Assembly: GCA_026414805.1 (NCBI GenBank)
Contig: JAOAIH010000001.1
Span: 51,335-115,334 of the forward strand
Direction: 5' to 3'
DNA from: Spirochaetota bacterium
GTDB taxonomy: Bacteria; Spirochaetota; UBA4802; UB4802
Length of the DNA: 64,000 nt
Shown in pieces: positions 28,091 through 61,159 of this stretch. Every line of letters starts with the position of its first letter. The stretch's first letter is position 1. Made by a program: the position numbers and the translations under genes. The notes beneath the pieces were generated by a model that saw nothing but the letters and a program-made list of their open reading frames with translations, was not told the DNA's origin and searched no databases.

Positions 28091-29536
28091 ATGAATACAA
28101 AACAAAAGGATATTTTAGCTATTTTTTGTTTGTTTTTAATTTTGCCTGTTATTGTGACTGCAAAGCCAATTATTACGATTGATAGCATCGATGTAACTTC
28201 ATTTCCAGCGATTAATATAAAAGGTATTATCAACAAACCAGAAAGCACTGATATTGGTGCAGTAACAAAAGAACATTTTACAGTTCTAGAGGATGGCACA
28301 AAAGTTAAGAATTTTGAATTAAAAACTTCTATAGCAGATAGTTATATTGCTGTTTGTGTAGATTCAAGTAAAAGTATATCCAAGAAAAATTTTTTAAAAC
28401 TTAAAAAAATAGCATTGAACGTAATCAGTAAAAGCCCTGAACACTATAAGTTTATTCTGTATAAATTTAATGATGAGGTTGTAAAATTAGGTTCTTTTTT
28501 AGAAAATAGATACTATTATCATGAAACTATTGAAACAATACAGCAGCATGGTAAGCGCACAAAATTGTTCAACTGCTTGTTTACAGCTACAGAGGAACTA
28601 GCGCGTTATGAGGGGAAAAGATCCATTATACTGCTGACCGATGGGAGGGATGAAGGCAGTTTTATGTTACCAGATGACATTATCAGCAATGCCCGTGAAC
28701 ATTCTATCCCTATATATACAATTGTACCAGAGCGCTGTTCAAAGGCTGCGGTTGTTAGCCGGTTAAGCAAAATTACAAAAGGGAAGCTTCTTGTTGCTGA
28801 TGCAGGGATAGAACATACTGTACTTAATTTGCTTCAGGGAGGAAAGTCATCCGTTATCCCATTTGAGATTATTTTCACATCCAAAAAACATGATAGTGCA
28901 ATACATTCCATTGAAGTACAATTCAAATATAAAACTATTCAGGATAATGATACTGTACACGTAAAGTACGCAATAGCACGTAATACCTATTCACTTACTG
29001 ATGAGCTTCCCTTTGTGGTACTTGCTGGGATTGTAGTGCTATTGATCATGGCGCTTGTTATAGTTATATTGATATTTATAAATAAATGGAGAGAGATAGT
29101 TGAGCTCATCACCATGCATAGGATACCAAAACCAATTCAGCGTTATTATTCCGTACTGTATGAAAAAGATGAAATGACAAAAAAAGAAGCAGATACATTA
29201 CTTTTGGCAACATCTCCTGAATACAGTTATACAAATGCTTGGCTTGTTGAAAAAAGTGGCCCTGAAACAGGGAAAAAATTTCCTCTAATATGGGATGAAG
29301 TAACAATTGGGCGCGATAAGGAGAATACTATAGTAATTAATGATGATGCAGTATCCCTGAAACATGCAAAAATAAAAAAAATTGGAAATACATATTATCT
29401 TTTTGACTGTGCAAGCGATAATGGTACCTTTTTGAATAACAAGAAGTTATTGCGTCCCAAACCTCTCTCAGACTGGGATGAAATACAGATAGGAAGAACA
29501 ACGATATTGTTCCGTGGAACAAAGATAAAACATTAA
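28091..29536 (+). CDS. signal-peptide vWA domain - transmembrane helix - cytoplasmic FHA domain protein
   Basis: vWA-like region (VCVDSSKSIS, ILLTDGRDEGS). A single TM (LPFVVLAGIVVLLIMALVIVILIF). C-terminal FHA-like region (VTIGRDKENTIVINDDAVSLKHAKI...YYLFDCASDNGTFLNNKKL). Confidence 0.7.
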   Translation: MNTKQKDILAIFCLFLILPVIVTAKPIITIDSIDVTSFPAINIKGIINKPESTDIGAVTKEHFTVLEDGTKVKNFELKTSIADSYIAVCVDSSKSISKKNFLKLKKIALNVISKSPEHYKFILYKFNDEVVKLGSFLENRYYYHETIETIQQHGKRTKLFNCLFTATEELARYEGKRSIILLTDGRDEGSFMLPDDIISNAREHSIPIYTIVPERCSKAAVVSRLSKITKGKLLVADAGIEHTVLNLLQGGKSSVIPFEIIFTSKKHDSAIHSIEVQFKYKTIQDNDTVHVKYAIARNTYSLTDELPFVVLAGIVVLLIMALVIVILIFINKWREIVELITMHRIPKPIQRYYSVLYEKDEMTKKEADTLLLATSPEYSYTNAWLVEKSGPETGKKFPLIWDEVTIGRDKENTIVINDDAVSLKHAKIKKIGNTYYLFDCASDNGTFLNNKKLLRPKPLSDWDEIQIGRTTILFRGTKIKH

Positions 29537-29540
29537 GTAT

Positions 29541-31046
29541 ATGTCCCTAAAAGTACTTCTGGTATCACCTCCGGTATTTGATTTTTATTATAGCTTTCAC
29601 CGTTCTGAACCCCTTGGGCTTTTGTATATTAGGGAAGCTTTGTTGAGGTATGATTGGCTTACGGTAGATATGTTTGATGCACGGTGTAACAGCACCACAA
29701 AAATGATACCTACCCCACACATATTTGATTATCTGAAACATATCTATGTTAAGGATACTTCATGGTTTAGTCTTCTTTATGGCTTTAAACGATATGGTTA
29801 TTCATTTGAAACAATATCAAAATTTGTTAAGGAACATGCGTATGATGTAGTATGCATTTCTTCTCTTTTCTCGGCATATCACCATGATGTTGAGTTACTG
29901 GTTAAAAAAATTAAAGAAGAAACCGGGGCGATAGTTATTGTGGGAGGATGGGCTGTATGGGCAGAAAAAACGGTAATTGAAAATGGCAGTGCTGATTTTT
30001 ATATAAGTGGAGATGGAGATGTGATACTGCCTGAGATACTGCGTGAGATAGATAGCAATAATACATCTAGGTTGCCTAAACTGATTACTACTAAGAATTC
30101 AGAATATAACGAATTCTTTGTAAATAGCTTCCCCTCTCGTAGGCACTGGTATACCTACTATGGTGCACGAATAGCAAATATCATCTGTAGCAAAGGGTGT
30201 GTGTATCGTTGTGATTTTTGTTCAATACATTGTCGGTATCGTTACTATCAGCGGAATTTTGAATCAATAGAAAAAGAATTAGAATATCTGTATGCACACG
30301 GAGTGAAAATAGTCAATTTTGAGGATGACAATTTTTTATTCCACAAAGGATTTGCATTACAGTTGCTATCGCTTTTGAAATATTACCATAAAAAAGGAAT
30401 GCATTTTTTATGTATGAATGGCGTAACCGCTTTCAATCTTCATTCAGTTTTGGATGATGCTCTTAATGCTGGATTTTTAGAATTTAACCTTTCCCTGGTT
30501 TCTTCGCAAAATACAGTAGTTGCTCAACATCACAGGCCTGATGTAAAAGAAATAATCAAAACTATTGCAAAACATTCTGCGGGGAAAGTAAAAGTGGTTG
30601 TGTATCTCATAGCGGGGCTACCGGGTTCTACTGTTGAAACCTGTGTTGAGGATATCCTTTTTTTAGCAAAGCTACCTGTTTTAATAGGATTTTCGCCTTT
30701 ATATATGCTTCCCGGGCTTGAATTATTTGATGCTATTGGTTTACCCAAAGACCGAAGATTATGCAGAGGCAGTGCCCTGTATTATTTTGGAGATAATTTT
30801 AGTCGTGAGGATATTGCGGCATTGTGGAAACTATGCCGTTTTATAAATAGGGTGAAGAATCCAGCAACAATTGATGCAGGTGAGATGAAAGAGCATAGTG
30901 ATTTTTATAAAAAATCCTGTAGAGAAAAGGTATGGTATTTTCGAGATAGCCAAGGTATGTGGCATGAAGGCTTTCAATTTAATGTAACCTTACCCCAAAG
31001 TTTTAAGGTATATGATATACAGGGTAATGAAATGCTTATTTTATAA
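29541..31046 (+). CDS. B12-binding-domain radical SAM protein
   Basis: N-terminal B12-binding-like fold (VLLVSPPV...PLGLLYIREAL). Radical SAM cluster motif CVYRCDFC (CxxxCxxC). Its start is 4 nt after the vWA-FHA stop. Confidence 0.75.
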   Translation: MSLKVLLVSPPVFDFYYSFHRSEPLGLLYIREALLRYDWLTVDMFDARCNSTTKMIPTPHIFDYLKHIYVKDTSWFSLLYGFKRYGYSFETISKFVKEHAYDVVCISSLFSAYHHDVELLVKKIKEETGAIVIVGGWAVWAEKTVIENGSADFYISGDGDVILPEILREIDSNNTSRLPKLITTKNSEYNEFFVNSFPSRRHWYTYYGARIANIICSKGCVYRCDFCSIHCRYRYYQRNFESIEKELEYLYAHGVKIVNFEDDNFLFHKGFALQLLSLLKYYHKKGMHFLCMNGVTAFNLHSVLDDALNAGFLEFNLSLVSSQNTVVAQHHRPDVKEIIKTIAKHSAGKVKVVVYLIAGLPGSTVETCVEDILFLAKLPVLIGFSPLYMLPGLELFDAIGLPKDRRLCRGSALYYFGDNFSREDIAALWKLCRFINRVKNPATIDAGEMKEHSDFYKKSCREKVWYFRDSQGMWHEGFQFNVTLPQSFKVYDIQGNEMLIL

Positions 31047-31050
31047 AATT

Positions 31051-31734
31051 TTACTTTTTATACATTATAAAAAGATAATTAAATCCTCTTAAGAAGAAAT
31101 TACCTTCTTGGGCAGCTTTGTGGTACTTGCCCATCTGCAATGTTTTGTTATGGCGCACTACTGCAATAATATCAATGGCAGAAAAATATTTAAGCAGTAG
31201 TAAAAACAGATGGAAACCAATGGGAACAAACCCGTCTTTTTTATTAAAGTAATCGCACACATACAATCCCATATACCGCTTTGGTTTTAATATTCTATGA
31301 ATCTCCTTAATTACTTCCTCCATGGCTATGAAATAATCTTGTTCTGTGGCCTTTAATTTGCCTATACATAATGCTTCATTGGAGTAGGTGATGTTGTCGC
31401 CGTAGGGAGGGTCAATAAAGACAAAGTCTGCTTTGTTATTTTCAAGGGGCAATTTCCGTGCATCTGCTTTTATTATATCTTTTCGGTAGGGATGAATATC
31501 ATAGCCCAGACATTTTCTGCCAATATCTTTGCAGACGTCAATGGTGGTGCCGCTGCCACACATAGGATCGACTACAAGATCGCCTTTATTGGTATAGCGC
31601 ATAAGTAAATTCCAGATAACATATGATGGTGTAGCGCCAGGGTAGTTCTGATCCCCCTGCTGTGTATTACCATAATGCTGTGAAGGGTAATTCCATAGCG
31701 TTGTGGTTTGAATAGATAAAGGTGGCTTGAGCAT
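31051..31734 (-). CDS. small DPPY-motif amino-methyltransferase (N6/N4 DNA MTase-like; motif I precedes motif IV)
   Basis: YPGATPSYVIWNLL...GDLVVDPMCGSGTT resembles the motif-I half of N6_N4 methylases. FIDPPYG (motif IV) lies 40 aa downstream. 227 aa. Confidence 0.55.
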   Translation of the reverse strand: MLKPPLSIQTTTLWNYPSQHYGNTQQGDQNYPGATPSYVIWNLLMRYTNKGDLVVDPMCGSGTTIDVCKDIGRKCLGYDIHPYRKDIIKADARKLPLENNKADFVFIDPPYGDNITYSNEALCIGKLKATEQDYFIAMEEVIKEIHRILKPKRYMGLYVCDYFNKKDGFVPIGFHLFLLLLKYFSAIDIIAVVRHNKTLQMGKYHKAAQEGNFFLRGFNYLFIMYKK

Positions 31735-31864: not shown

Positions 31865-32428
31865 ATGGAATACTTTGGAGGAGATATGGGTAACAGAAGT
31901 TCAGATTGTATTGCACAATGTTATGTTCTATACGGAAGTTATGTTCGAAGTATCATTAAAAGGTTTTACACAGATAAAGACGATATTGAGGATATTTTTC
32001 ATGATGTTTTTCTTAAATTGCTTAACGTTGGGTTTTCCGCAGATCCACATTCATATAAAACCAAAAACTATATTGGGAAGGCAACACGACATTGTTGCAT
32101 TTCACATATGCGTAAAAAGATTGCACGCCAAAAGAATTGCAAAGAAGTCTATACAAGTACTCTATGTGATAGTGATATAGTTGTTGATATATGCAACAAA
32201 AATATTGAAGACACAATAATTGAGGGGATGGTTGTCAGTACTCTTTACGATGTTATACATGAGCTTGAATATCATGAGCAAAATCTGGTGTTTGACAAAT
32301 ATTTTCACAATAAAAAATATGTACAGCTTGCTGCAGAGCAGGGAGTTCCATATTATAGCGTTAAAAGGAAGATTAAAGAAATTAATATTAAAATAAAACA
32401 AAAGTTAATGAATAAAGGTATTGTATAA
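31865..32428 (+). CDS. sigma-70 family (ECF-like) RNA polymerase sigma factor
   Basis: Region-2-like EDIFHDVFLKLL, and a region-4 HTH-like KKYVQLAAEQGVPYYSVKRKIKEI. 187 aa. Confidence 0.5.
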   Translation: MEYFGGDMGNRSSDCIAQCYVLYGSYVRSIIKRFYTDKDDIEDIFHDVFLKLLNVGFSADPHSYKTKNYIGKATRHCCISHMRKKIARQKNCKEVYTSTLCDSDIVVDICNKNIEDTIIEGMVVSTLYDVIHELEYHEQNLVFDKYFHNKKYVQLAAEQGVPYYSVKRKIKEINIKIKQKLMNKGIV

Positions 32429-32471
32429 TAATAAAGGCGATAGCTATTGTAGTATTTAGCTTGAAATTTAT

Positions 32472-32530
32472 CGATATCTATTGTACAAGTAGCTTGTTTT
32501 TACTAGCAAACAATACAACAATAGATATCG
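32472..32530 (+). promoter_or_regulatory. 13-bp perfect inverted repeat (CGATATCTATTGT / ACAATAGATATCG) with nested TTGTTT/AAACAA stem, abutting the ribosome-binding site of the downstream 7TM-PP2C gene
   Basis: Arms at 32472-32484 and 32518-32530. The right arm ends at the G of GGAAGG (the ribosome-binding site), 8 nt before the TTG start at 32543. No U-run follows. Confidence 0.35.
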
Positions 32531-32542
32531 GAAGGTTTAACT

Positions 32543-34699
32543 TTGAAATATATTGTTACCCTGATATGTAGTTTCACAATTGTGTATGCGTTTTATGTGG
32601 TACTGGTTAATGTACTGAAACGGTTTTCCTATGCAGTAAACAGGTTATTTTCATTTATAGCTTTGCTTACTGCAGGGATGATCTTATGTTTACTTATACC
32701 TATTTATGTACCAGGTATTGATGTTACAGTAGTAACACGCTTATATTTTGCACTCATTATAATTATTAATCAATCCTTCTTCCATTATACACAGATATTC
32801 CCACGCTGGGAAAAAAGGAGCCCTTTACTCGTTATTATACTATCAGCAATTCCTGGCATTATTACTTTTCTAGTTACTATAGCAACCAATGGAATTATTC
32901 TTTCTGCTTCTTTGGTTGATGTTCATCTACAGTTTACCTATGGTCAATTTGTACTACTGTACCTGATTGTGTTTGTTCTTTATATATTGGGCACTTTCTT
33001 AACCCTATTCTACAAAGTGCGCCGGTTGGAAAATACCTCATTCAGATATCAGCTTTTTTATGTGTTTATGGGAAATCATGTAGGTGCGTTAATTATACTT
33101 GTGTCGTTTATTATTATGCCCTATGTTTTTCACCGCTATGAATATCACAGTTTGGGGATTTCTTCAGCAGCGTTGCTATTGTTATATATCAATAATTATG
33201 CTATATCTGATGAGCGGTATCTCAACTTTAAAGAGTTTTATCTTAAAATATTTTTTTATGCAATTGTATTGTTGTTCACTGTTTTTCCAACCTACTTGAT
33301 TCTTATCAATAGTTACCGTTATTTTTTGGCAGGGGGACAGATACCTGCAGTTGCTGTTGCATTTTTAAATTTTATATATTTAATATTTTTTACCAGGGTT
33401 GTACAACCGTACTTAGAAAAATTTATTAAACAAGAATATGCCCATTTAGAAAAACGTTTTAACGATTTTATTCAGGCATTATCGCAAACTGAAGAATTTG
33501 AAGGCGATCCAACCTACTGGGACAGGTTCTTTACAACTACTATGGAATCGCTTGAATATTTATTTAATGTTGTTTTTGCAAGCTTTTTAATGTACAATGA
33601 ATCAGAAAAAGCATATATATTAAGCCACACTGTAGGTCAACAGCCTCAATTGAAGAGGATATCCTTGGATGATTCATTAGTTCAATTATGCCAGACTGTT
33701 AAAACAACCATACATAAATCATTGTTCTATACTGATGCAATGATAAGACCATTTGATGATGTACTTACATTGATAAAAAATAATTCAATTGAAGTTATTC
33801 TTCCATGTTTTGACCAGTCAGGCAAGCTTATTGGGATTCTTTTTTTAGGGCCTCATAGAAAGGGGCGGCCATATACGTTTAATGAAATTGAGTTTATGGA
33901 ATTGTACCGCGTGAAATTTAATAATGCACTCATTAATTCACTTCAGATTGAAGAGGTAAAGGTAAAACAGATAGGTGAACATGATAATTTAGTAGTAAGT
34001 GCCATAAAAAATTCAATTATACCAAGACAGTTGCCCTCTATTGAACATATACGAATGAGTTCGTTGTTTATGAACAATTCAAATTTAGGGGGTGAATTCT
34101 TTAGTGCAAAAGTTTTACATAAGAATGCGCTTGCTTTTTTAATTTCGGATTGCTCATACAGTGGAGTAGATGCTGCGGTACTGGCATTGGAGCTTTATGC
34201 TGCTTTTGAATCATTATCCTCAACCTATGATACACCAGAAAAAATAATGCAGTTATTAAACTGGGTAGTATGTACATCAAAATTTACTGAACGATATGCG
34301 ACAACTTTTTGTTTTACCTTTAACTCTGAGACGTTATCATTAAAGTATATCAATGCTGCATTTAATCCTCTGATAATGTATGAAATTAATAATGACAGTT
34401 TTGTAGAATTAGATACAAAAGGTATACCAATAGGAATTGAAAAAGAATTTATTTATGAGTCAAAAGAATATATTGTTAAAGGACCATGTGTTGGATGTAT
34501 TTACTCTAATGGAATCACTGGTGCTGTGAATCAGATGGGGCAGCCATATGCTGTTGGAAGAATTAAAGATTTGATAAGGCTCCATAATAACGAAAGCCCT
34601 GCTCTTTTAATCCGTCGTATCACTGCAGATATAGAGACATACACAAGTAATACAGCAGTTAAAGAAGATATAAGTATTATTATTTTTAGAATTGATTGA
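32543..34699 (+). CDS. multi-pass membrane sensor with C-terminal PP2C/SpoIIE-type phosphatase domain
   Basis: ~9 N-terminal TM helices. C-terminus has LISDCSYSGVDAAVLALE (Asp-rich metal site like DvsGHGxxAA) and LIMYEINNDSFVELDTKGIPIGI. 718 aa. Confidence 0.6.
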   Translation: MKYIVTLICSFTIVYAFYVVLVNVLKRFSYAVNRLFSFIALLTAGMILCLLIPIYVPGIDVTVVTRLYFALIIIINQSFFHYTQIFPRWEKRSPLLVIILSAIPGIITFLVTIATNGIILSASLVDVHLQFTYGQFVLLYLIVFVLYILGTFLTLFYKVRRLENTSFRYQLFYVFMGNHVGALIILVSFIIMPYVFHRYEYHSLGISSAALLLLYINNYAISDERYLNFKEFYLKIFFYAIVLLFTVFPTYLILINSYRYFLAGGQIPAVAVAFLNFIYLIFFTRVVQPYLEKFIKQEYAHLEKRFNDFIQALSQTEEFEGDPTYWDRFFTTTMESLEYLFNVVFASFLMYNESEKAYILSHTVGQQPQLKRISLDDSLVQLCQTVKTTIHKSLFYTDAMIRPFDDVLTLIKNNSIEVILPCFDQSGKLIGILFLGPHRKGRPYTFNEIEFMELYRVKFNNALINSLQIEEVKVKQIGEHDNLVVSAIKNSIIPRQLPSIEHIRMSSLFMNNSNLGGEFFSAKVLHKNALAFLISDCSYSGVDAAVLALELYAAFESLSSTYDTPEKIMQLLNWVVCTSKFTERYATTFCFTFNSETLSLKYINAAFNPLIMYEINNDSFVELDTKGIPIGIEKEFIYESKEYIVKGPCVGCIYSNGITGAVNQMGQPYAVGRIKDLIRLHNNESPALLIRRITADIETYTSNTAVKEDISIIIFRID

Positions 34700-35838
34700 G
34701 GAAAAATTCCCTTTTTAATATATTTATGATGATGAATATTGATTTTGAAGGATTGGCAAAAAATATTATAGCACTATTGCAGGGACAGGAAAATGTTGCA
34801 ATTATAATCAAAGGCTCACCTGATCCGGATGCTATAGCTTCTTCATATTTTTTCTGGAAAATTTGTACCATAATGCATGTCAATGCTTCAATATTTTGTT
34901 TCATGCCTGCATCTTTACCATCTAATAGAGCTTTAATTTCAATGTTTAACATACCGGTGAAAATTGTTGCAAGTATAAATGAAATAAAATTGAAACGATA
35001 TTCGGGATATATAGTATGTGATTATCAAACAGCAAGGCTTGAAGATGAATTTTCTTCCACTCCCTGCATTATTCATCTAGATCATCACACTCCTGCAGAA
35101 CATGATGTTCCTGCAAGTATTAGAATTTTAACAGATGAAGTATCGTCAACCAGTACGCTTTGTGTGCTGTTAATGCAGCATATATCCTTTTTATCGATGG
35201 ACGATATTTCGGAGCTTTCTACTATATTGTATGTTGGCATAAAAACAGATTCAGATGGTTTTAGCCACATGAATGAATATGATACAGTGGCTATTGAATA
35301 TATAAAACCATATTGTGATATAGCATCAATTCAAAAAATTGAAAATACACCATTAACTCCTTATACAGTTGCCCTGCTACAAAAAGCAATGAATAATGCT
35401 GTCAATTATAAAGATTGGCTTATTGCAGGTGTTGGATTTGTTGAAGAAAAGTATCGAGATACTATCGCCATAATAGCTGATTATCTTTTGCAAAACAACG
35501 ATGTTGAGCTTGTTGTAGTATATGGAGCAGTCTACCATAATAACCACACTAAATTGGACATAGATGCATCATTTAGAACAAAAAATGAAGACTTTGATTT
35601 AAATGAGCTTATTAAAAATATTACTCCTGATGGGGGTGGACGTAAATATAAGGGAGCATTTCAGGTTCATATTGATTATTTTGTCCATTGTCCTGATCAG
35701 GATAAATTGTGGGAAGTGATAGAAATTACAACAAATGCTATTTTGCAGAATCAAAGAGACCATAGTTTTGCAATAGCTTTGCAGAGTAAATTTAAAAAAC
35801 TAAAAAATATATTAAAGCAGCTATTTGGCTTTAAATAA
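34696..35838 (+). CDS. DHH/DHHA1 phosphoesterase (NrnA-like nanoRNase / pAp phosphatase)
   Basis: DHH motifs GSPDPDAIAS and HLDHH, with a DHHA1-like GGGRKYKGAF. Its start overlaps the preceding stop. Confidence 0.7.
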   Translation: MRKNSLFNIFMMMNIDFEGLAKNIIALLQGQENVAIIIKGSPDPDAIASSYFFWKICTIMHVNASIFCFMPASLPSNRALISMFNIPVKIVASINEIKLKRYSGYIVCDYQTARLEDEFSSTPCIIHLDHHTPAEHDVPASIRILTDEVSSTSTLCVLLMQHISFLSMDDISELSTILYVGIKTDSDGFSHMNEYDTVAIEYIKPYCDIASIQKIENTPLTPYTVALLQKAMNNAVNYKDWLIAGVGFVEEKYRDTIAIIADYLLQNNDVELVVVYGAVYHNNHTKLDIDASFRTKNEDFDLNELIKNITPDGGGRKYKGAFQVHIDYFVHCPDQDKLWEVIEITTNAILQNQRDHSFAIALQSKFKKLKNILKQLFGFK

Positions 35839-35855: not shown

Positions 35856-38800
35856 TTAAAATAACAAGCTAAACTGGAAACCCAGTTCGTATGATATGAT
35901 CTCACGGTTAATACCATTTGTTTCCCTATTTCTGAATCGTTCCAGAATCCCACGCGCTATGCATTGTCCTTGTACATTTTTATGCATGTTTATTGTCAGG
36001 CTGGATGAGATACTGTAGAGATCATAGGGTTCAGGTGAAGTAAAATAGGTATAGTTATACCGGTTTAGCGTCATAAGATATTCTAACCTGAATATAGGCA
36101 GCGCTGTCAATGTGTACCAGATACTGAAAAAATCATATATAAAAGGGACATCCGTTTCATATATAGTTGAAAACGTATACCCTTTATCAATGTTGGTATA
36201 TGGTGGTTGCATAGTCATATTATAGTAATAGATATCATCCTTTGCTGATCGCTTGTCTTCTTCAATTGGTATGAATTCATACCATTGCTGTGAGCGGTAG
36301 CTTATACCAAATTTTGTAGCTATGCTTGACCTATCCCACTTGAATGTTGTTCCAATACTTGGTGTGTGCTCATTTATCAGTATATTAGATGTGATTCGTA
36401 AATATTTATTAAACTGGTATTCAAATAGTGCTGTTGCTGAATGATATGGGAGGTTGGGCCTGTTTGGCCTGAAAAAGCCAAATGAAAATATCTTCATTAA
36501 ATCGCAAGACAATGATGAGACTAGTGTATAGGTTACTACCTGCTGGGATGGTGAGTTAACACCATTGCGGTCTGATACTGAGTGGAGGCTGCTATTTACA
36601 AAAATTATAAATGGAGATAGCTCCCAGCTGATTGCAAATGATACATTGTCTAAAAGCCTGAAGTAGTTATTGTATTCTGAAAATGTGGTCTGGTTAACTA
36701 CTGGTTGAGAAGATAACGTATATGTTACAAAATCACGCCCTCTGGCATAATTTGATCTTCCCTTAAAGAAATACCATGGAGGATATTGTAGTAAATTATA
36801 TATTGAATTGGCAGATGCATTGCAGTAACGACCAGCACCAAATTTTTCTTCATAAAAGTTGATGGATTCACCTTCATAAGGGACGTTAATTTCATTGAGT
36901 GTACTACTCCTGGTATAATTAATTGAACAATTTTTTATGCTGGGAAAGTATGATTGGAGATTGATGGGCAATGAAAGTGTATTGGATAAAAATCCTTGTG
37001 TGGATCGGGTACGTTTGAAACCGTAGTGTAGCCAGTTATCATAAGGCAGTAGGTCTTTAAATTGATTTTCAAAATACGAAAATTCATACGTTATTGTAGG
37101 GTTTATAAATTTATAGCGCTGCAGTCCCAAGGCAAGTGAGTATTTTTTTAACCGCTCAATGAACCGGATTGTGTCATTATAAAGAAAGGGGATATGGAAG
37201 CCAGAGCTTATCTCATTTGATAAAACTGGATTAATATCAGTAACTGTACCTGAGTAGGTAAGGAATTCTTCAGATACATGTTGAATTCTGGGAGAAATAA
37301 AAAAATGGGTGAATTGATAATTGATATTTATTGAACATGATTGGCGCTGTTTTTTTTGTGTATTGTATCCTGATGTTAATGATTGGCTGTATTCTTTAAA
37401 TATGTCTTCCTTAAATGAAGCATCCAGAAATATCCTGTACGATAAATCTCCCCCTACTATATCATGCAATGATTGTTGTAATCCTACTGTTGCTTGATGT
37501 GTTGTTTTACTTGTATCATTATCAAATGTATTAATGTCCTGATAATACGCCTGTCTGTTAGTGAAGTTTTCATAATTGTACAGTACATTAAGCTGTGGAA
37601 TAGCTGTATCTGGTGGTGACAGAGTTGATGAAAAGTGGAATTGTTGTATATTGGTTGTTCCCCGTTTTGTAGGGCTAACCTGTTCATTGAGACTATCAGT
37701 CCTTGATTGCTCCTGTATGTAATCAAATGATGTGTGCCAGTATGGAAGAACACTGCAAGTTAATGTTGCCTGATTGTAGTCTTCGGATATATCATTATAT
37801 GGCTGCCCTATCGTATAAAAATTATTTCCGTGTTTTTTCTTTACATATGATACGGTAATATCGGATAATACAGGTGTACCTGATTCAGTGCGGGTAATAG
37901 GTTTTGTTATTTTTACTGTACCTTCATACCATGATGCAGTGTCTTCAAGTGTCATAGGGTCACTGGTGTAAATATCATTAAGCCAGAATTCACCATTTGT
38001 GGGAGTGGTATTTTCAACTGAAACTGTGATGGCAGTTATCCGTTTGAGATCAGGTTCTCCTTCCTTTTTTTTAAACTGTACGTTTGTATTCTTGCATTGG
38101 AGTGATAATACAATATCTTCCCAGGTATGCAGCAGTTGAGGGGTGTAGGAATATTCCAGGTAATCACTGTCAGATGAATGTATACGAAATGTAAGAATAT
38201 CCCCTGGTGTAAAACTTCGCATGTTAATCCAGCTATGTATGTTGCGATAAAAACGCAAATCCATGGGTTTATGAAATTTTCGCTTGATAGTAGCTGAACT
38301 AATCGCACTATATGTTACTTTGAGAGCAGATTCCATAGTTTGGGTGAGTTCTTTTTTGGATTTATCGCCATAGAGACTTGTATACACGTCGCTTTTTATG
38401 CGCGCAAATGATTCCTGTGCATAGTCTGTATCATTAAATGAATCAATGAGTGTGAGTTTGACTTTATCTGTGTTACTGCCACTTATCCCATCAATGCTAT
38501 CAACCTGCCAGTGCATGGTAACAAAACGTATTGTATCAATAAGGATTGTACCTGAAGTTGCTGTTGCTTTGTGTAATATCAATCGAATTGAATATATTTT
38601 TTTCAATATATCATAAAACGCATCTGGATTTGTAGCATATAATGAGGGGTTGTTTTTATTCACATAGATACGGATGCTTTTCCATGAGGTATCTGCCAAA
38701 TTTACTGAGAGAGGAGATGGTAGCCCAGGGATTCGTATGTACTGTTCTCCAGTATCAAGCATACCGTTGTCATTTAAGTCTTCGGTATTGAGTACTCCAT

Positions 38801-41495
38801 CGCCAATGGTGGTGGATGATAAACCTGGGCCTGACCCTACTGTAGTTGGGAAAGATGGATTATTAAAAATATAACCTGTATCTTCGGATATATTCCGGTT
38901 AGTATCATAATCTAAGAATCCATTACGGTTGCTATCTTCACTGTCAAGGATCCCATCCCCGTCGCTATCTTCGTTTATACTGCCAATATCGCAATAAAGG
39001 TCAATGGTTCCTGTGCCACCAGTACTGCGATACCATATCTCTACATATTCAATTGTAGAAAGATCAACTGGTTTGGGCGATAATGTACGGGTAACAATGG
39101 AGATATACTCACCTGTGCTGAAGTCAAAATTTAACCCTAAAGACCGCTGGGATTGTTCTGTTTGTATGGATTCCGCTATATGCCCTGTGGCAACATTGTA
39201 CGGACCAGGCTTTTTTGAATAGGGAACATTAATAGGGGTAAAGTTTAATCCGTACAGTGTTTGGGGATTATTAATATCACGGTAGAATTTATAATAAATT
39301 CGCGCACGATCGTTCTGTGTAATACCGGCTGGCAATGAACCAAGTATCCAGTCTTTCTCGGACATTGACAGCGTAAGACCTGAATAGATTGATTCAAAAT
39401 CATCAATAAGGCCTTTGCCAAAAGTGTTGATGCTGTGATAGCTTTTTGCAAATTCTGCATACCCTTTGAACATTGCAGGCACTGATATATCAGAATTGGT
39501 TATGTTTGATGCTAAGGCTGATATATCATGAGGGCTGAACTCTACTGTGCTATCGGCTTCAATAACAGTTGTTTGCGTTGGTTCGTTCCCTAACAATGGA
39601 ACAGTGGATGCCATGCCCTGTGTGGTATACAGGATTGTACCACCTACATTAATGTTTTTGTTGAGAGCATAATCAGCACGCATGCCACCGATAAACTGCT
39701 GTGCCTGCCCTTCAAAGGGAAGATACTGGTAGCTTACTTCAATATCGGTTTCAGGTGTTATGACTGGATTGCCAGAATTGGTGAACTGGAAAAAACCTGA
39801 TGTAGGGTCAACGCTGTATAGACTTTCTGCAATCTGTATGCCATTAATTTTTACACGTACTGTGTCAGGGATTATGTTGACGTGTTTAAGCTGAAACCCA
39901 CGTGACTGGCTGTATCCTGCAATGCCAATTTTATACTGTGAAACTGTAAACGCCTGCTGATTTTGTGATTCAGTATAGATAATTTTTTGTGATTGTGCAG
40001 GCAATAGACCTTTAAAGGGTTCGCGCAGCTTAAAAGTGATAGTACCAGAATTATAATCCACATTAAAATTGCCTAATTTTTGTATATCAGATTGAGACAT
40101 TGGGAAAAGGTTATTGAAAAAAGATATTTTTACATCTTCAGCACGTATATTTTGTAAGCCTGTAGAGTATATCCCGCGAATTTCATAGATGTCTAAATTT
40201 AGTGTACCGTCATTATTAGTGTCCTCACCGGGATCAAGGGTACCATTAAAATTGACATCTTCGTGAATTGACGGGCCATATTTAATAAACACGCATATTT
40301 TGCCTGGAAATTGTGGGTGTGTAGTGATTGCAGAAGGGTCAGAGGTTTGAGTGCTTCCACCATTACGCGTATATACTGCAAATATTTTTGCTTGAGGTTT
40401 AAAAGATTTTAATAGGGCGATAGTACCTGTGGAAAAGTTTATGGTGTAATCAGAACCCTGTTGCAATCTTCTGAAATATCCCAAAATAATAGAAGGATCA
40501 TCCCATTTGCGAAGTTCCAGCAATCCACTTTTACTTTGTGTGATAGCTTCATCAGCATACAGTTCAAAACCAGAGCTATCGATACCCACAGGATACGGTG
40601 TGTAGGTAGAAGGGATAGCAGGTGTTGAAGTCCAGGTAATGGTTGTATAATAATTTGTTGGTGGAGTATCACTATTATCATAACGCTTGAAAGGTTCCAA
40701 CTGATAGTAGGTGGCTTTGGTATACTGGTATTCCTGCAATGTAATGCTTGCGCTTGAGAAGTTTCCCTTAAATCGTTCTATTTCGCTGACTCCCTTTGCA
40801 ACGGAGCCAAATGCTTTTAATTGCAAGTTACCCTTTTTAATAGTAAAATCAATTCCCATACCTTTTGATGAGGTATCATCGTATACGGCATATTTTGATT
40901 TGTTCACTTTAATGGTTATATCACCAGCATTGATTTCACGCAACACTTCATCATCTTCTACAGCTTTATATTGCATAATATAGGTGTTGGTACGCTGCTG
41001 GCTGTCATGGTCTATGTAAAGTGTGAGTCGTCGCCCTGCTTTCCCTTCGATATGCAACTGCATAGTCTGTTCGGGACTAAATCCTTGTTGAATTAATGTT
41101 GAAGTGGGTTTATCCTCATCAAATCGCTTATACTTATTGTTAGTAAAAAAAGATTTTCCATATTTAAGGTTAAGGTTCATTGATCCATAGGAGAGGATAT
41201 CATAAGGCTCTTCTTGTGATAAGGTTTCAGTGCCGGGAATGGTATATTTGTAATGAGGATCAATGATATATTTAGTCCAATCACCCTGATTATATTCAAA
41301 GGGTGATTGTGTGTCATCTCCAACTGCTGGCACTGTTTCAACAGGGACATCTGTTTTTTTTTCTATTACTTTGTATGTTGAAATGTATTCATCTATTAAT
41401 TGTCTAAAAGAGGAAGTTGGTTGTTGGGAAATGACTATGGCAGTTGCTGATGTCAGCAGTACACCAATAACGATGATATTGGATAGTGATTTCAT
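35856..41495 (-). CDS. giant (1879 aa) secreted outer-membrane beta-barrel-type protein with thrombospondin-type-3-like Ca-binding repeats; SprA/Sov-like (candidate T9SS translocon) at low confidence
   Basis: Signal peptide. Repeated DxDxDG/DxNxNG motifs (DSDGDGILDSEDSNRNGFLDYDTNRN, DLNDNGMLDTGE, DPGEDTNNDGTLNLD). The C-terminal residues ...FQFSLLF end in Phe, as outer-membrane beta-barrels do. The size is comparable to SprA. Confidence 0.6.
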   Translation of the reverse strand: MKSLSNIIVIGVLLTSATAIVISQQPTSSFRQLIDEYISTYKVIEKKTDVPVETVPAVGDDTQSPFEYNQGDWTKYIIDPHYKYTIPGTETLSQEEPYDILSYGSMNLNLKYGKSFFTNNKYKRFDEDKPTSTLIQQGFSPEQTMQLHIEGKAGRRLTLYIDHDSQQRTNTYIMQYKAVEDDEVLREINAGDITIKVNKSKYAVYDDTSSKGMGIDFTIKKGNLQLKAFGSVAKGVSEIERFKGNFSSASITLQEYQYTKATYYQLEPFKRYDNSDTPPTNYYTTITWTSTPAIPSTYTPYPVGIDSSGFELYADEAITQSKSGLLELRKWDDPSIILGYFRRLQQGSDYTINFSTGTIALLKSFKPQAKIFAVYTRNGGSTQTSDPSAITTHPQFPGKICVFIKYGPSIHEDVNFNGTLDPGEDTNNDGTLNLDIYEIRGIYSTGLQNIRAEDVKISFFNNLFPMSQSDIQKLGNFNVDYNSGTITFKLREPFKGLLPAQSQKIIYTESQNQQAFTVSQYKIGIAGYSQSRGFQLKHVNIIPDTVRVKINGIQIAESLYSVDPTSGFFQFTNSGNPVITPETDIEVSYQYLPFEGQAQQFIGGMRADYALNKNINVGGTILYTTQGMASTVPLLGNEPTQTTVIEADSTVEFSPHDISALASNITNSDISVPAMFKGYAEFAKSYHSINTFGKGLIDDFESIYSGLTLSMSEKDWILGSLPAGITQNDRARIYYKFYRDINNPQTLYGLNFTPINVPYSKKPGPYNVATGHIAESIQTEQSQRSLGLNFDFSTGEYISIVTRTLSPKPVDLSTIEYVEIWYRSTGGTGTIDLYCDIGSINEDSDGDGILDSEDSNRNGFLDYDTNRNISEDTGYIFNNPSFPTTVGSGPGLSSTTIGDGVLNTEDLNDNGMLDTGEQYIRIPGLPSPLSVNLADTSWKSIRIYVNKNNPSLYATNPDAFYDILKKIYSIRLILHKATATSGTILIDTIRFVTMHWQVDSIDGISGSNTDKVKLTLIDSFNDTDYAQESFARIKSDVYTSLYGDKSKKELTQTMESALKVTYSAISSATIKRKFHKPMDLRFYRNIHSWINMRSFTPGDILTFRIHSSDSDYLEYSYTPQLLHTWEDIVLSLQCKNTNVQFKKKEGEPDLKRITAITVSVENTTPTNGEFWLNDIYTSDPMTLEDTASWYEGTVKITKPITRTESGTPVLSDITVSYVKKKHGNNFYTIGQPYNDISEDYNQATLTCSVLPYWHTSFDYIQEQSRTDSLNEQVSPTKRGTTNIQQFHFSSTLSPPDTAIPQLNVLYNYENFTNRQAYYQDINTFDNDTSKTTHQATVGLQQSLHDIVGGDLSYRIFLDASFKEDIFKEYSQSLTSGYNTQKKQRQSCSININYQFTHFFISPRIQHVSEEFLTYSGTVTDINPVLSNEISSGFHIPFLYNDTIRFIERLKKYSLALGLQRYKFINPTITYEFSYFENQFKDLLPYDNWLHYGFKRTRSTQGFLSNTLSLPINLQSYFPSIKNCSINYTRSSTLNEINVPYEGESINFYEEKFGAGRYCNASANSIYNLLQYPPWYFFKGRSNYARGRDFVTYTLSSQPVVNQTTFSEYNNYFRLLDNVSFAISWELSPFIIFVNSSLHSVSDRNGVNSPSQQVVTYTLVSSLSCDLMKIFSFGFFRPNRPNLPYHSATALFEYQFNKYLRITSNILINEHTPSIGTTFKWDRSSIATKFGISYRSQQWYEFIPIEEDKRSAKDDIYYYNMTMQPPYTNIDKGYTFSTIYETDVPFIYDFFSIWYTLTALPIFRLEYLMTLNRYNYTYFTSPEPYDLYSISSSLTINMHKNVQGQCIARGILERFRNRETNGINREIISYELGFQFSLLF

Positions 41496-41538
41496 GTGTT
41501 ATAATAAAAAGCATGTATGGCACTGGGAAATAATACTA

Positions 41539-42531
41539 TTACCACATCTTGCTCATATAAGGGTAAGGATTAATTGGCACCCCTCCCAAACGTATTTCAT
41601 AATGGCAGTGACTGCCTGTGGCCGAACCGGTTTGGCCAACATAGGCAATAACCTGCCCTTTCTGGATATTCTGCCCTGGATACACTATTATCTTGGAACA
41701 GTGTCCATATATTGTTTCATAGCCATATTTGTGTTTAATCCTGACCATGTAGCCGTAACCGCCACCCCATGATGATGATACCACTACACCAGGAGCTGTC
41801 GCACGAATTTCTGTGCCCTGAGGCGCTGCTATGTCAATGCCAGAGTGGAAATCTCTTCCAAAACCAAATGGCGAACGCCTCCATCCAAAAAGTGAGGTAA
41901 TGTGGCCAGGATTAGGTATTATTGATGGTGTGTCGTATATTACTTTATTACGGACATCAATGAAATTCTTAATTGTTTTAACGGTATTTGTGGTGCAAAT
42001 TAAATCTTTTTGAAGAGCGCGCAGTGTTTTTACTTCAGAGGGCAGAATTGCTGAGTATTGTCGCATTGCAGGATCTTCAACCGGAATCATTGATGATTCC
42101 CATATTGATTGTGTGTTGTTATTATTGGTTGCTAATTCATACAAATCTTCGATGTCGGGTTTTATGTCATCTAATTCTTTTTCCAGTTCATTTGTCAATT
42201 GTTCAAAACGTATGAGTTGTGACCGAATATCTTTGTAATTTGACATTAATCGCTCTTCTTCCCGTTTTACTGCAGCATTTTTTATTATGGCATAGGCAGA
42301 TGTAACAATAACTATAACCATTAATGAACTAAAAAAAAGTATTGTAAAACGAGAAATCTGAAAATTAAATATCTTCTGTTCATTATGCGGAATGAACATT
42401 ATTGTCATTTTTTCATGGCCATGTTCAAGGAATTTGTCCCATTTTTTGGCCCATTGCTTTTTTTTAAGATAATATTTTTCTTTGAGCTGTCGCTCAATTT
42501 CACTCTTTATTATTTTAAGCTTTACCTTCAT
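41539..42531 (-). CDS. M23 (LytM-type) peptidase with N-terminal TM and coiled-coil (EnvC-like)
   Basis: FHSGIDIAAPQGTEIRA...GHCSKI...GSHCHYEIR are the HxxxD / HxH motifs of M23 peptidases. Confidence 0.8.
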   Translation of the reverse strand: MKVKLKIIKSEIERQLKEKYYLKKKQWAKKWDKFLEHGHEKMTIMFIPHNEQKIFNFQISRFTILFFSSLMVIVIVTSAYAIIKNAAVKREEERLMSNYKDIRSQLIRFEQLTNELEKELDDIKPDIEDLYELATNNNNTQSIWESSMIPVEDPAMRQYSAILPSEVKTLRALQKDLICTTNTVKTIKNFIDVRNKVIYDTPSIIPNPGHITSLFGWRRSPFGFGRDFHSGIDIAAPQGTEIRATAPGVVVSSSWGGGYGYMVRIKHKYGYETIYGHCSKIIVYPGQNIQKGQVIAYVGQTGSATGSHCHYEIRLGGVPINPYPYMSKMW

Positions 42532-57991: not shown

Positions 57992-58606
57992 CTATCGTCT
58001 AATCCGTATTTTTGGTAGCTGTCGTTTTTTAATTTTTGGTGCACCTTCAGGATTATATTTATTCTGCACTTCTTCAATGCTATGTGTTATAAGCATTCTG
58101 ACCACTTCTTCTGATTTGTTAAGTACGTCTATCAATATCAAATTTTCATCTTCAGAAAAATCATTCAGGAGATATTCCTCCATTGTCATGCCTTTTTTAG
58201 GATATCCAATCCCTATGCGTACCTTGGCAAATCTGTCTGATTTTAACGCACGGGTTATCGATTCAATGCCGGGATGCTTAAGCTTTGACATAATTGAGTC
58301 AATTCTTATTTCACCAAGAGGGAGGGTGGGATCCTCCAATACACATATAATATCGCGTACATTTATGCGAAGAAAGGAGGCAATATATAACACTGATTCG
58401 CCTAGTAAATTGACAAAGGTTTGTGGTTTGAGCAGTACAACATCCTCACCGCAAATTTTTCCACGTCCAATAATAGATTTTTTCTTTTTTATACGGATGT
58501 CGATATTCTCGTTGTTTCCAAGAATATCGACAACCTTAAATCCAATATTTTGTCTGTTATTGAAATATTCTTCGCCTGGATTTCCAAATCCTACGATTAG
58601 TTTCAA
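57992..58606 (-). CDS. pth: peptidyl-tRNA hydrolase
   Basis: MKLIVGFGNPGEEYFNNRQNIGF matches the Pth N-terminal signature. Confidence 0.85.
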   Translation of the reverse strand: MKLIVGFGNPGEEYFNNRQNIGFKVVDILGNNENIDIRIKKKKSIIGRGKICGEDVVLLKPQTFVNLLGESVLYIASFLRINVRDIICVLEDPTLPLGEIRIDSIMSKLKHPGIESITRALKSDRFAKVRIGIGYPKKGMTMEEYLLNDFSEDENLILIDVLNKSEEVVRMLITHSIEEVQNKYNPEGAPKIKKRQLPKIRIRR

Positions 58607-58630
58607 TTACATACTCCTTGTGATTGACTG

Positions 58631-59254: not shown

Positions 59255-59327
59255 ATCAACCTCTTTCAGATTATTTAATATACATTATAGTAAAAATGTT
59301 ATAAAATTCAACAATAAATTCCTGTAA

Positions 59328-60275: not shown

Positions 60276-60295
60276 AACAAACCTTTTTTAAAATA

Positions 60296-61048: not shown

Positions 61049-61058
61049 AAATAAAAAT

Positions 61059-61130
61059 CTGAGGTGCCAGGATTCGAACCTGGGAATGCCGGGACCAAAA
61101 CCCGGTGCCGTACCGCTTGGCTACACCTCA
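61059..61130 (-). tRNA. tRNA-Gln (anticodon UUG)
   Basis: Reverse complement TGAGGTGTAGCCAAGCGGTACGGCACCGGGTTTTGGTCCCGGCATTCCCAGGTTCGAATCCTGGCACCTCAG folds as a cloverleaf: 7-bp acceptor stem, U8, GTTCGAATC T-loop, anticodon loop TTTTGGT. It is near-identical in layout to E. coli tRNA-Gln. CCA is not encoded. Confidence 0.8.
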
Positions 61131-61159
61131 ATTATTAAATAATATAGTAAAAATTTATA

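What the first reader, a model, noticed from the sequence alone, without database searches (positions are those of the whole stretch)
35856..42531. 1879-aa Ca-binding-repeat outer-membrane protein next to an M23 peptidase: possible SprA-type secretion translocon
The protein has a signal peptide and a terminal Phe typical of beta-barrels, and it carries many thrombospondin-type-3-like DxDxDG/DxNxNG loops. Its size and beta-rich C-terminal two-thirds resemble SprA/Sov of type IX secretion, but that assignment is tentative; it could equally be a surface adhesin or S-layer-associated outer-membrane protein. Together with the SPOR protein, TPR protein and M23 peptidase, it indicates a Gram-negative-type envelope despite the Firmicute-like gene order around dnaA.
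Basis: partly seen in the sequence, partly recalled or inferred. Interest (0 to 1): 0.5.

Follow-up and report, generated by a model that had tools for sequence, protein, structure and literature searches.

The report
SprA-like giant barrel in Spirochaetota
This 1879-residue protein is a distant relative of SprA, the giant outer-membrane pore through which Bacteroidota export proteins, but here it is conserved in uncultured spirochaetes, outside the only bacterial group thought to have that pore, and always follows a cell-wall-cutting enzyme.

Summary
ORF 35856-41495 (-) encodes a 1879-aa protein with a signal peptide and a C-terminal Phe. It has 5-6 DxDxDG-type loops, fewer than "many". An intact M23 peptidase gene lies 43 bp upstream.

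The tentative SprA assignment is supported by four lines:
- NCBIfam TIGR04189 hit, E 4e-32, 110 bits, below the 200-bit cutoff.
- AlphaFold models of both halves (pLDDT 82 and 87). Their top four Foldseek PDB hits are all SprA chains, E 5e-38 and 4e-24; the next hits are 4e-4 and 2e-6.
- hhalign probability 100% over 1571 columns to relatives that pass the SprA cutoff.
- hhalign E 1e-42 to a Cloacimonadota protein that NCBI names SprA.

The family is labelled "hypothetical" wherever a source names it. It is found in at least 112 species-level genomes, nearly all labelled Spirochaetota. The M23 gene is directly upstream in 63-64 of the 80 loci fetched. A sister clade sits in Leptospiraceae-labelled MAGs.

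SprA is described as specific to the FCB superphylum. I could not test whether these genomes carry gldKLMN, porV or CTD cargo. None appears in the window or the flanks. So this is a SprA-family barrel, probably a protein-conducting channel, with T9SS membership unresolved.

The parts
35856..41495 (-). SprA-like giant outer-membrane beta-barrel gene (1879 aa plus stop)
   Evidence: ORF. TIGR04189 E 4.3e-32. SprA chains are the top Foldseek hits for both halves. hhalign probability 100% to SprA-cutoff-passing relatives and to a protein named SprA.
41424..41495 (-). Signal peptide, aa 1 to about 24; no lipobox
   Evidence: Read from the sequence. AF2 models aa 2-23 as a helix at low pLDDT. An Ala near position 24 is conserved in the family consensus.
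40734..41204 (-). N-terminal set of about 9 beta strands (aa 98-254); the most conserved part of the protein
   Evidence: DSSP on the AF2 model. Column identity is 0.72-0.74 for aa 151-250. This stretch aligns to the N-terminal strands of SprA relatives.
40197..40259 (-). Ca-loop cluster 1 (aa 413-433: DVNFNGTLD, DTNNDGTLN)
   Evidence: Motif scan.
39306..39959 (-). Region that carries the direct sequence match to the SprA model (aa 513-730). It comprises a small beta-sandwich (VRVKINGxxI..YSVD..SG) plus four long strands.
   Evidence: TIGR04189 best stretch is aa 513-730 against profile positions 575-794. The signal is confined to aa 501-1000. DSSP.
38754..38990 (-). Ca-loop cluster 2 (aa 836-914: NEDSDGDGILD, DSNRNGFLD, DLNDNGMLD). 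It is invariant in the family and also present in SprA relatives.
   Evidence: The A5 consensus reads DLGxISEDxNGNGxLDTED and aligns to this stretch. Weak CglD hit.
38046..38708 (-). Jelly-roll or CBM-like extracellular domain, about aa 930-1150. The boundaries are approximate.
35859..38039 (-). C-terminal barrel region (aa 1153-1879), about 26 strands, ending in the beta-signal ...YELGFQFSLLF
41496..41538 (-). 43-bp spacer between the M23 stop codon and the SprA-like start codon; no terminator-like site
41539..42531 (-). M23 (LytM) metalloendopeptidase gene, 330 aa. It has an N-terminal membrane anchor (about aa 62-84), a probable coiled coil, and a catalytic domain at aa 228-322 with HxxxD (229-233) and HxH (308-310) intact.
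   Evidence: PF01551 E 8e-34 and weak coiled-coil family hits at aa 63-155. NCBIfam hits to MepM, ShyA, Pgp3 and DipM, all below cutoff. Motifs. The gene is directly upstream on the same strand in 63-64 of 80 loci.
34696..35838 (+). Convergent DHH/DHHA1 phosphoesterase gene. It is a conserved neighbour; no functional link is shown.
   Evidence: Pfam. Present downstream in 58 of 80 loci.
32543..34699 (+). SpoIIE-type PP2C phosphatase gene. It is a conserved neighbour; any regulatory link is speculative.
   Evidence: Pfam. Present in 50-54 of 80 loci. In the sister clade a STAS anti-sigma antagonist sits directly upstream of the SprA-like gene.

Best explanation
The 1879-aa protein is a divergent member of the SprA/Sov superfamily. 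It is a single-chain giant outer-membrane beta-barrel. Its strands are spread along the whole sequence (aa 98-254, 521-690 and 1153-1877). Large extracellular insertions sit between them: a beta-sandwich, two clusters of Ca-binding loops and a CBM-like jelly roll. By analogy with SprA, these insertions would form the cap.

The proposed route is as follows. The protein is exported by Sec and inserted by BAM through its C-terminal beta-signal. It then most likely works as SprA does, as a very wide gated channel that lets folded proteins cross the outer membrane.

In this Spirochaetota lineage it is co-transcribed with an inner-membrane-anchored, catalytically intact M23 peptidoglycan endopeptidase. 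I infer that this enzyme opens the cell wall locally, either for assembly of the machine or for cargo to reach it.

What is shown: the gene, its conservation, the SprA fold and homology, the conserved Ca loops, and the M23 operon. What is inferred: channel function, protein cargo, and the role of M23. What is unresolved: whether the rest of a type IX secretion system (gldKLMN motor and ring, PorV shuttle, CTD-tagged cargo) exists in these genomes.
For: Sequence:
- TIGR04189 (SprA/Sov) E 4.3e-32, 110 bits. The signal lies in aa 501-1000.
- hhalign of the family profile against 11 relatives: probability 100%, E 3e-116, 1571 aligned columns, query positions 139-1888. Two of these relatives score 215 and 265 bits on TIGR04189, above the 200-bit cutoff.
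- hhalign against a Cloacimonadota protein that NCBI names 'cell surface protein SprA': probability 100%, E 9.5e-43, 1048 columns.

Structure:
- AF2 of aa 1-1150, pLDDT 82.2. Foldseek top four hits are 8gl6_A, 8gl8_A, 6h3i_A and 6h3j_A, E 5.5e-38 to 2.6e-26; the next hit is 4e-4.
- AF2 of aa 730-1879, pLDDT 87.2. The top four hits are the same SprA entries, E 3.6e-24 to 5e-20, TMq 0.50-0.52; the next hit is 2e-6.

Conservation:
- More than 120 full-length homologues.
- 112 relatives in GTDB species genomes; 79 of the 80 loci kept are labelled Spirochaetota or an unclassified bacterium/metagenome.
- Invariant terminal Phe and Ca-loop residues.

Operon: the M23 gene is directly upstream on the same strand in 63-64 of 80 loci, with a gap of 34-491 bp. 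No terminator lies between the genes. The catalytic motifs are intact.

Functional analogy: a 1682-aa relative (210 bits on TIGR04189) sits beside two PorV/PorQ-family genes and two cargo genes with T9SS type A CTDs. Short SprA forms do therefore occur in a real T9SS setting.
Against: - The score is below NCBI's SprA equivalog cutoff (110 against 200 bits). No Pfam SprA_N hit at E up to 0.1. No HMMER hit to the SprA sequences in the PDB, even with family profiles.
- The two models are fragments, so barrel closure, strand number and a lateral opening were not seen.
- No T9SS gene was found among the window ORFs scanned or in the conserved neighbourhood. tblastn with a PorV query found nothing in the 80 loci or the window. 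In C-terminal segments of 143 distinct flank proteins, TIGR04183 was not among the families matched by three or more segments, so the two positive controls account for all matches except at most one.
- The M23 adjacency may be plain lineage synteny. The unrelated DHH and PP2C neighbours are conserved almost as well, and the sister clade has no M23.
Confidence: 0.7

Rival explanations
1. It is simply the translocon of a complete, canonical T9SS that this Spirochaetota lineage possesses, whether inherited or acquired. The gldKLMN, porV, sprE, porU and porZ genes and the CTD cargo would be encoded elsewhere in the genome, as they usually are in Bacteroidota. This is a special case of the best explanation, with its open point settled in favour of T9SS.
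For: Full-length SprA homology. Sequence scores run continuously up to bona fide SprA. A short 1682-aa relative sits in a PorV plus CTD context. From general knowledge, sprA is not normally clustered with gldKLMN, so an uninformative neighbourhood is expected. PorV/PorQ-family barrels are reported in a cultured spirochaete, Brachyspira (10.1101/2025.01.03.631275).
Against: T9SS and SprA are described as specific to Bacteroidota or the FCB superphylum (PMC12611786; PMC10994853). The papers that mention T9SS or SprA together with spirochaete names, where I opened them, do not report a T9SS in that phylum. No T9SS gene, PorV or CTD was found in the window or in roughly 1.6 Mb of related flanks, though that sample is small and syntenic.
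Confidence: 0.35
2. It is a SprA-fold barrel recruited to a T9SS-independent envelope task tied to peptidoglycan and cell-shape machinery. Examples would be an outer-membrane channel or anchor that works with the M23 endopeptidase during growth or division of a spirochaete cell, or export of something other than CTD proteins.
For: The M23 operon is strictly conserved, and M23 (54-98% identity) is more conserved than the barrel (37-85%). The sister clade lies between a STAS gene and zapA, followed by mreBCD-pbp2-rodA, or next to a class A PBP. No T9SS partner was seen nearby. The lineage has a flagellar motor gene, motB, in the flanks, so it is not a glider.
Against: No precedent is known for such a role of the SprA fold. 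Gene order in these lineages is broadly syntenic, so adjacency is weak evidence. The cap-forming Ca loops and the beta-sandwich are conserved with T9SS-context SprA relatives, which argues for a retained function.
Confidence: 0.25
3. It is mainly a surface adhesin or S-layer-anchoring outer-membrane protein. On this view the barrel is only a membrane anchor for Ca-stabilised, carbohydrate-binding extracellular domains.
Against: The same extracellular modules are present in SprA relatives and align with them. The barrel, not the cap, accounts for most of the sequence and is what matches SprA. SlpA matches are far weaker: Foldseek 3.9e-4 against 3.6e-24.
Confidence: 0.08

Closest known systems
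SprA (Flavobacterium johnsoniae) / Sov (Porphyromonas gingivalis), the 36-strand T9SS outer-membrane translocon (PDB 6H3I, 6H3J, 8GL6, 8GL8; NCBIfam TIGR04189)
   Same: Both are single-chain giant beta-barrels whose strands are interleaved with large extracellular insertions. SprA is the best structural match for both halves. Direct sequence similarity covers the beta-sandwich and strand region, aa 513-730. Profile-profile homology to SprA relatives runs over nearly the full length. Both have a Sec signal and a terminal aromatic beta-signal.
   Different: It is about 450-550 residues shorter (1879 aa against a profile of 2319 positions). Identity to the SprA structures is only 10-14%. It scores below the curated cutoff and has no Pfam SprA_N match. 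It is found in Spirochaetota, not in the FCB superphylum. It is always preceded by an M23 peptidase gene. No PorV, Plug, PPI, SprE or gldKLMN partners have been identified.
Short SprA homologues of uncultured, mostly FCB-group bacteria, 1550-2200 aa. Examples: P0301 (1682 aa, 210 bits), P0340 (2196 aa, 265 bits), and Cloacimonadota 'cell surface protein SprA' P0414 (2068 aa).
   Same: Same architecture, including the DxDxDG loop cluster (DLGxISEDxNGNGxLDTED) and the NG..L..DY.VDY..G beta-sandwich motif. Similar length.
   Different: Those proteins reach the SprA cutoff or are named SprA, and at least one lies beside PorV-family genes and CTD-cargo genes. Their neighbours are lptFG and comF-like genes, not M23.
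Sister clade of SprA-like proteins in MAGs labelled Leptospiraceae or Spirochaetia (P0259, P0260, P0262, P0396, P0398; 1970-2060 aa)
   Same: About 31% identical over 93% of the length. Same phylum label. Also annotated 'hypothetical'. Also embedded among cell-envelope genes.
   Different: It is preceded by a STAS anti-sigma antagonist and followed by convergent zapA and then mreBCD-pbp2-rodA. No M23 is present.
Other large outer-membrane barrels: MtrB (26 strands), TonB-dependent transporters (22), LptD (26), Deinococcus SlpA (30)
   Different: At most 457 residues align, against 811 for SprA. Foldseek E is 1e-5 to 1e-3 with TMq at most 0.25. There is no sequence signal.

Membership tests
SprA/Sov superfamily (fold and homology) | Statistically significant sequence or profile homology to recognised SprA proteins | tested here: met
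   TIGR04189 E 4.3e-32. hhalign probability 100%, E 3e-116, to relatives that include proteins above the SprA cutoff. hhalign E 9.5e-43 to an NCBI-named SprA.
SprA/Sov superfamily (fold and homology) | SprA-type giant barrel fold | tested here: met
SprA/Sov superfamily (fold and homology) | A closed barrel of 36 strands with an extracellular cap and a lateral opening | tested here: inconclusive
DSSP shows about 35-40 long strands in total. Closure, strand count and gate could not be inspected.
NCBIfam TIGR04189 equivalog 'T9SS outer membrane translocon Sov/SprA' | Whole-protein score at or above the curated cutoff of 200 bits | tested here: not met
   110.4 bits. PGAP accordingly names it 'hypothetical protein'.
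Pfam PF14349 SprA_N | Match to the Pfam model | tested here: not met
   No Pfam family at E up to 0.1. More distant relatives do carry PF14349.
Type IX secretion system (as a system) | Core motor and ring genes gldK/L/M/N (porK/L/M/N) in the same genome | not testable with these tools
   Only 64 kb of this genome and flanks of up to 10 kb in relatives were readable. None was seen there.
Type IX secretion system (as a system) | PorV-type shuttle or other outer-membrane partners (PorV, PorQ, PorU, PorZ, SprE) | tested here: inconclusive
   tblastn with a PorV-family protein from a T9SS-context relative found no hit in the window or the 80 loci. Whole genomes were not searched.
Type IX secretion system (as a system) | Cargo proteins with a T9SS C-terminal sorting domain (TIGR04183 or TIGR04131) | tested here: inconclusive
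   I scanned 143 C-terminal 120-aa segments of distinct proteins from the window and flanks. TIGR04183 was not among the families matched by three or more members, so the two positive controls account for all matches except at most one. The sample is small and syntenic.
Type IX secretion system (as a system) | Host belongs to Bacteroidota or the FCB superphylum | tested here: not met
   Source labels are Spirochaetota, Spirochaetes, Leptospirales or Leptospiraceae for the protein and for 77 of the 80 loci; two loci carry only an unclassified bacterium or metagenome label. The one locus labelled Bacteroidetes (L080) has the same M23 synteny and is probably mis-binned.
Peptidase family M23 (the upstream gene) | LytM domain with the HxxxD and HxH zinc ligands | tested here: met
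   PF01551 E 8.3e-34, 116 bits against a cutoff of 28.7. H229-D233 and H308-H310 are present.

The most novel reading that the evidence does not exclude
A SprA-type giant translocon has been maintained for a long time in two deep clades of flagellated, non-gliding Spirochaetota without the T9SS motor, PorV shuttle or CTD signal. Either it is a T9SS-independent outer-membrane export or envelope channel coupled to a dedicated peptidoglycan endopeptidase, or the SprA pore predates the FCB superphylum and T9SS was later built around it.
Probability: 0.3. Interest if true: 0.8.

Novelty: new variant of a known kind. Interest (0 to 1): 0.55.

Why it matters
SprA is currently described as the FCB-specific T9SS channel, and its presence has been correlated with a special BamG/BamH-type BAM complex thought necessary to build such outer-membrane proteins (PMC12611786).

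A conserved SprA-fold barrel of about 210 kDa in Spirochaetota, in two clades only about 31% identical to each other, extends the fold beyond that superphylum. It also offers a natural test of three questions:
- Is T9SS really confined to FCB?
- Can SprA-type pores work with other partners?
- Is the FCB-type BAM required to assemble them?

The finding also gives a functional lead for a family of large proteins that the public sources label only as 'hypothetical'. It points to a reproducible genetic pairing with an M23 cell-wall endopeptidase that could be tested.

Tried and rejected
- phmmer of the protein against PDB sequences found no SprA hit. It gave only a weak NetB-toxin match at aa 93-178 (E 0.0016), which I took as chance beta-strand similarity.
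- hmmsearch with the family profiles A1 and A4 against PDB sequences found nothing, even at E up to 10. Sequence-to-structure linkage needed NCBIfam, hhalign and Foldseek instead.
- Pfam found no family for the protein. PF27067.1, precomputed for a few homologues, did not come up when three of them were rescanned against the local Pfam copy, so its meaning is unknown.
- A full-length structure was not possible because of the 1200-aa limit.
- The afdb50 fold library was unavailable.
- A homology search with the M23 protein returned only the same lineage in its top 120 hits, all at 57% identity or more. It gave no bridge to cultured spirochaetes.
- Literature searches for T9SS or SprA together with Spirochaetota or Leptospira found no report of such a protein among the papers I opened. 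A search for 'UBA4802' gave nothing useful, so the GTDB class of the lineage remains unverified.
The substitutes are only weak negatives.
- The promoter and terminator scan was no better than shuffles.
Full report
OBSERVATION

The window has an ORF at 35856..41495 on the minus strand (1879 aa, ATG start). A second ORF lies at 41539..42531 on the same strand (330 aa), 43 bp upstream.

The large protein starts with a typical Sec signal (MKSLSNIIVIGVLLTSATAIVISQQ, no lipobox) and ends in ...SYELGFQFSLLF. The final Phe and S1868 are invariant, and Y1869 is conserved in at least 90% of 31 homologues.

The motif [DN]x[DN]x[DN]G occurs six times, against 0.2 expected from shuffles. The loops fall in two clusters, aa 413-433 and 841-914, and most of their acidic residues are invariant in the family.

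The upstream protein is an M23 (LytM) peptidase (PF01551, E 8e-34). It has a membrane anchor at about aa 62-84 and a probable coiled coil. Both zinc-ligand motifs are intact: HSGID at 229 and HCH at 308.

WHOSE GENE IS IT

The protein is identical to NCBI's 'MAG: hypothetical protein N3F66_00390 [Spirochaetes bacterium]'. It has more than 120 full-length homologues of 1850-1930 aa at 37-85% identity. Every one that carries a source name is called 'hypothetical', and nearly all come from Spirochaetota MAGs.

A scan of one genome per GTDB species found 112 relatives. Of the 80 loci kept, 77 are labelled Spirochaetota, Spirochaetes, Leptospirales or Leptospiraceae, and two carry only an unclassified bacterium or metagenome label. 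The exception is a contig labelled Bacteroidetes that has the same synteny and is probably mis-binned. The envelope is Gram-negative-type simply because the organism is a spirochaete.

WHAT IT IS

Pfam gives nothing. NCBIfam's SprA/Sov equivalog model TIGR04189 matches at E 4.3e-32 and 110 bits, below the curated 200-bit cutoff. When the protein was scanned in four pieces, the signal lay only in aa 501-1000.

HMMER searches against PDB sequences did not reach SprA, either with the protein or with family profiles. I therefore tested the fold. The 1200-aa limit forced two overlapping AlphaFold2 jobs, each with a 64-sequence alignment.

- aa 1-1150: pLDDT 82.2. The four best Foldseek matches in the PDB are the four SprA entries: 8gl6_A at 5.5e-38, then 8gl8_A, 6h3i_A and 6h3j_A. 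The next hit is at 4e-4.
- aa 730-1879: pLDDT 87.2. The same four entries lead: 8gl8_A at 3.6e-24 with TMq 0.52. The next hit is at 2e-6. Other large barrels (MtrB, TonB-dependent receptors, SlpA, LptD) score only 1e-5 to 1e-3 with TMq at most 0.25.

The DSSP strings show long strands at aa 98-254, 521-690 and 1153-1877, roughly 35-40 in all. Strands spread through the sequence and separated by large insertions fit a barrel of SprA's size (36 strands). I could not verify closure, the exact strand number or a lateral opening.

SEQUENCE BRIDGE TO SprA

An exhaustive profile search with aa 96-1150 found 1584 representative proteins at E up to 1e-3, of which 613 were at E up to 1e-30. These fall into three groups: the protein's own clade, a sister clade, and hundreds of proteins of 1500-2200 aa.

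Five of them scored 112, 142, 210, 215 and 265 bits on TIGR04189. Scores therefore run continuously from below the cutoff, where this protein lies, to above it.

hhalign of the family profile against eleven of these relatives gives probability 100%, E 3e-116 and 1571 aligned columns, running to the C-terminus. Against a Cloacimonadota protein that NCBI names 'cell surface protein SprA', it gives probability 100%, E 9.5e-43 and 1048 columns.

The Ca-loop cluster and the beta-sandwich motif are conserved in these relatives. They are therefore features of the SprA superfamily and not signs of an adhesin.

One 1682-aa relative (210 bits) lies beside two PorV/PorQ-family genes and two genes whose products end in a T9SS type A sorting domain. 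Short SprA forms thus occur in genuine T9SS settings.

CONTEXT

In 63-64 of the 80 loci fetched, the M23 gene lies directly upstream on the same strand, with a gap of 34-491 bp. M23 is 54-98% identical across loci, more conserved than the barrel. No terminator-like site lies between the two genes in the window.

A convergent DHH phosphoesterase gene (58 of 80 loci) and a SpoIIE-type PP2C gene (50-54 of 80) are conserved almost as well. Further out, the genes are housekeeping ones: radA, mlaD, ispE, glmU and prs. Part of the M23 conservation could therefore be plain synteny.

The sister clade is about 31% identical. Its members are labelled Leptospiraceae or Spirochaetia, with one labelled Hydrogenedentota. 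There a STAS anti-sigma antagonist sits upstream and zapA lies convergent downstream. The mreBCD-pbp2-rodA genes then follow in one locus, and a class A PBP gene lies upstream in another. No M23 is present.

IS IT A T9SS?

I could not settle this. [quoted passage not shown] The papers I opened that mention T9SS or SprA together with spirochaete names do not report one in that phylum. A preprint does note a PorV/PorQ-family barrel in Brachyspira.

No T9SS gene is present among the window ORFs scanned or in the conserved flanks. A PorV query found nothing in the window or the 80 loci.

I also scanned C-terminal segments of 143 distinct flank proteins. The CTD model TIGR04183 was not among the families matched by three or more segments, so the two positive controls account for all matches except at most one.

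These are weak negatives, for two reasons. From general knowledge, sprA is not normally clustered with its partners. And only a few per cent of any genome was readable. A genome-wide HMM scan of the closed genomes carrying the gene would decide the matter; it is listed under next steps.

MECHANISM

Shown: a conserved, Sec-exported outer-membrane protein with the SprA fold and SprA homology, Ca-binding loops shared with the superfamily, and a conserved two-gene arrangement with an intact, membrane-anchored M23 endopeptidase.

Inferred: it forms a very wide capped channel through which folded proteins cross the outer membrane, as SprA does. The M23 enzyme would cut peptidoglycan cross-links locally, either for assembly of the complex or for cargo to reach it. 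From general knowledge, this resembles the dedicated cell-wall hydrolases of flagella and of type III, IV and VI secretion systems.

The rivals are:
- a canonical T9SS encoded elsewhere in the genome (probability about 0.35; a special case of the main reading);
- a T9SS-independent envelope role linked to cell-wall morphogenesis (about 0.25);
- a surface adhesin or S-layer anchor (about 0.08).

VERDICT

The feature is a divergent branch of the SprA superfamily that lies outside the known host range. It is shorter than canonical SprA, scores below the curated thresholds, is labelled only as hypothetical wherever a source names it, and has a distinctive M23 partner. I class it as a new variant of a known kind, of moderate interest. 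Interest would rise if the genomes prove to lack the rest of the T9SS.

Noticed in passing
L082:9585-15976, L088:9621-25000, L084:366-10152 (sister-clade loci): A second SprA-like clade, about 31% identical and 1970-2060 aa, occurs in MAGs labelled Leptospiraceae or Spirochaetia. It is always preceded by a STAS anti-sigma antagonist and followed by convergent zapA. mreBCD-pbp2-rodA then follows in L088; a class A PBP lies upstream in L084. Both Spirochaetota clades therefore sit among cell-wall and cell-shape genes.
   Followed up: partly
window 31865-34699: A sigma-70 region-2 protein and a 718-aa SpoIIE-type PP2C phosphatase lie next to the locus. Together with the STAS gene upstream of the sister-clade barrel, this hints at partner-switching regulation of SprA-like genes.
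   Followed up: no
L087:203-16371: A 1682-aa SprA homologue (P0301, 210 bits on TIGR04189) in an unclassified 'bacterium' MAG sits with two PorV/PorQ-family genes, an M6 peptidase and a Kelch protein. Both of the latter carry TIGR04183 CTDs. The homologue is divergent from lptFG. A much shorter SprA than the textbook 2400 aa thus appears to serve a real T9SS.
   Followed up: partly
window 39720-39962 (aa 512-592 of the barrel protein): The small beta-sandwich with the motif VRVKINGxxI..YSVD..SG..F also gives weak hits to phage tail-tube and distal-tail-protein models: NF052337 at E 1.8e-5, and TIGR02217/DUF2460. The same weak hits appear in SprA relatives.
   Followed up: no
window 15139-16599 (-): A 486-aa ORF beside the likely replication-origin region has no Pfam or NCBIfam match.
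   Followed up: no
window about 13200-15200: The cumulative GC skew reaches its minimum near 14 kb, next to ORFs whose sizes and order fit dnaA, dnaN, recF, gyrB and gyrA. I did not verify the genes with profiles.
   Followed up: no
window 25215-26987 (-) and 31051-31734 (-): Two DNA methyltransferases are present: an Eco57I/TaqI_C-type N6 methylase of 590 aa and an N6_N4_Mtase of 227 aa. No obvious endonuclease partner turned up among the ORFs scanned.
   Followed up: no
window 28091-31046 (+): A VWA-FHA protein is followed by a B12-binding radical SAM enzyme. This pairing is unrelated to the finding.
   Followed up: no
L080 (MWDJ01000049.1, 'Bacteroidetes bacterium ADurb.Bin145'): This is the only locus with a non-Spirochaetota phylum label. 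It carries the same M23 plus SprA-like pair (61% and 45% identity), so the contig is probably mis-binned. Likewise, one sister-clade protein is labelled Hydrogenedentota.
   Followed up: partly
homologues P0027, P0084, P0087, P0100, P0104, P0106: The precomputed Pfam accession PF27067.1 is attached to a few family members. It did not come up when three of them were rescanned against the local Pfam copy, so I could not tell what it denotes.
   Followed up: partly
window 57992-62080 against L059:19307-23361 and L068:19001-22457: The ispE, glmU-like, prs, L25 and pth block lies directly beyond the PP2C gene in distant relatives. In this window it sits about 22 kb away on the other side, which indicates a local rearrangement in this genome.
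   Followed up: no
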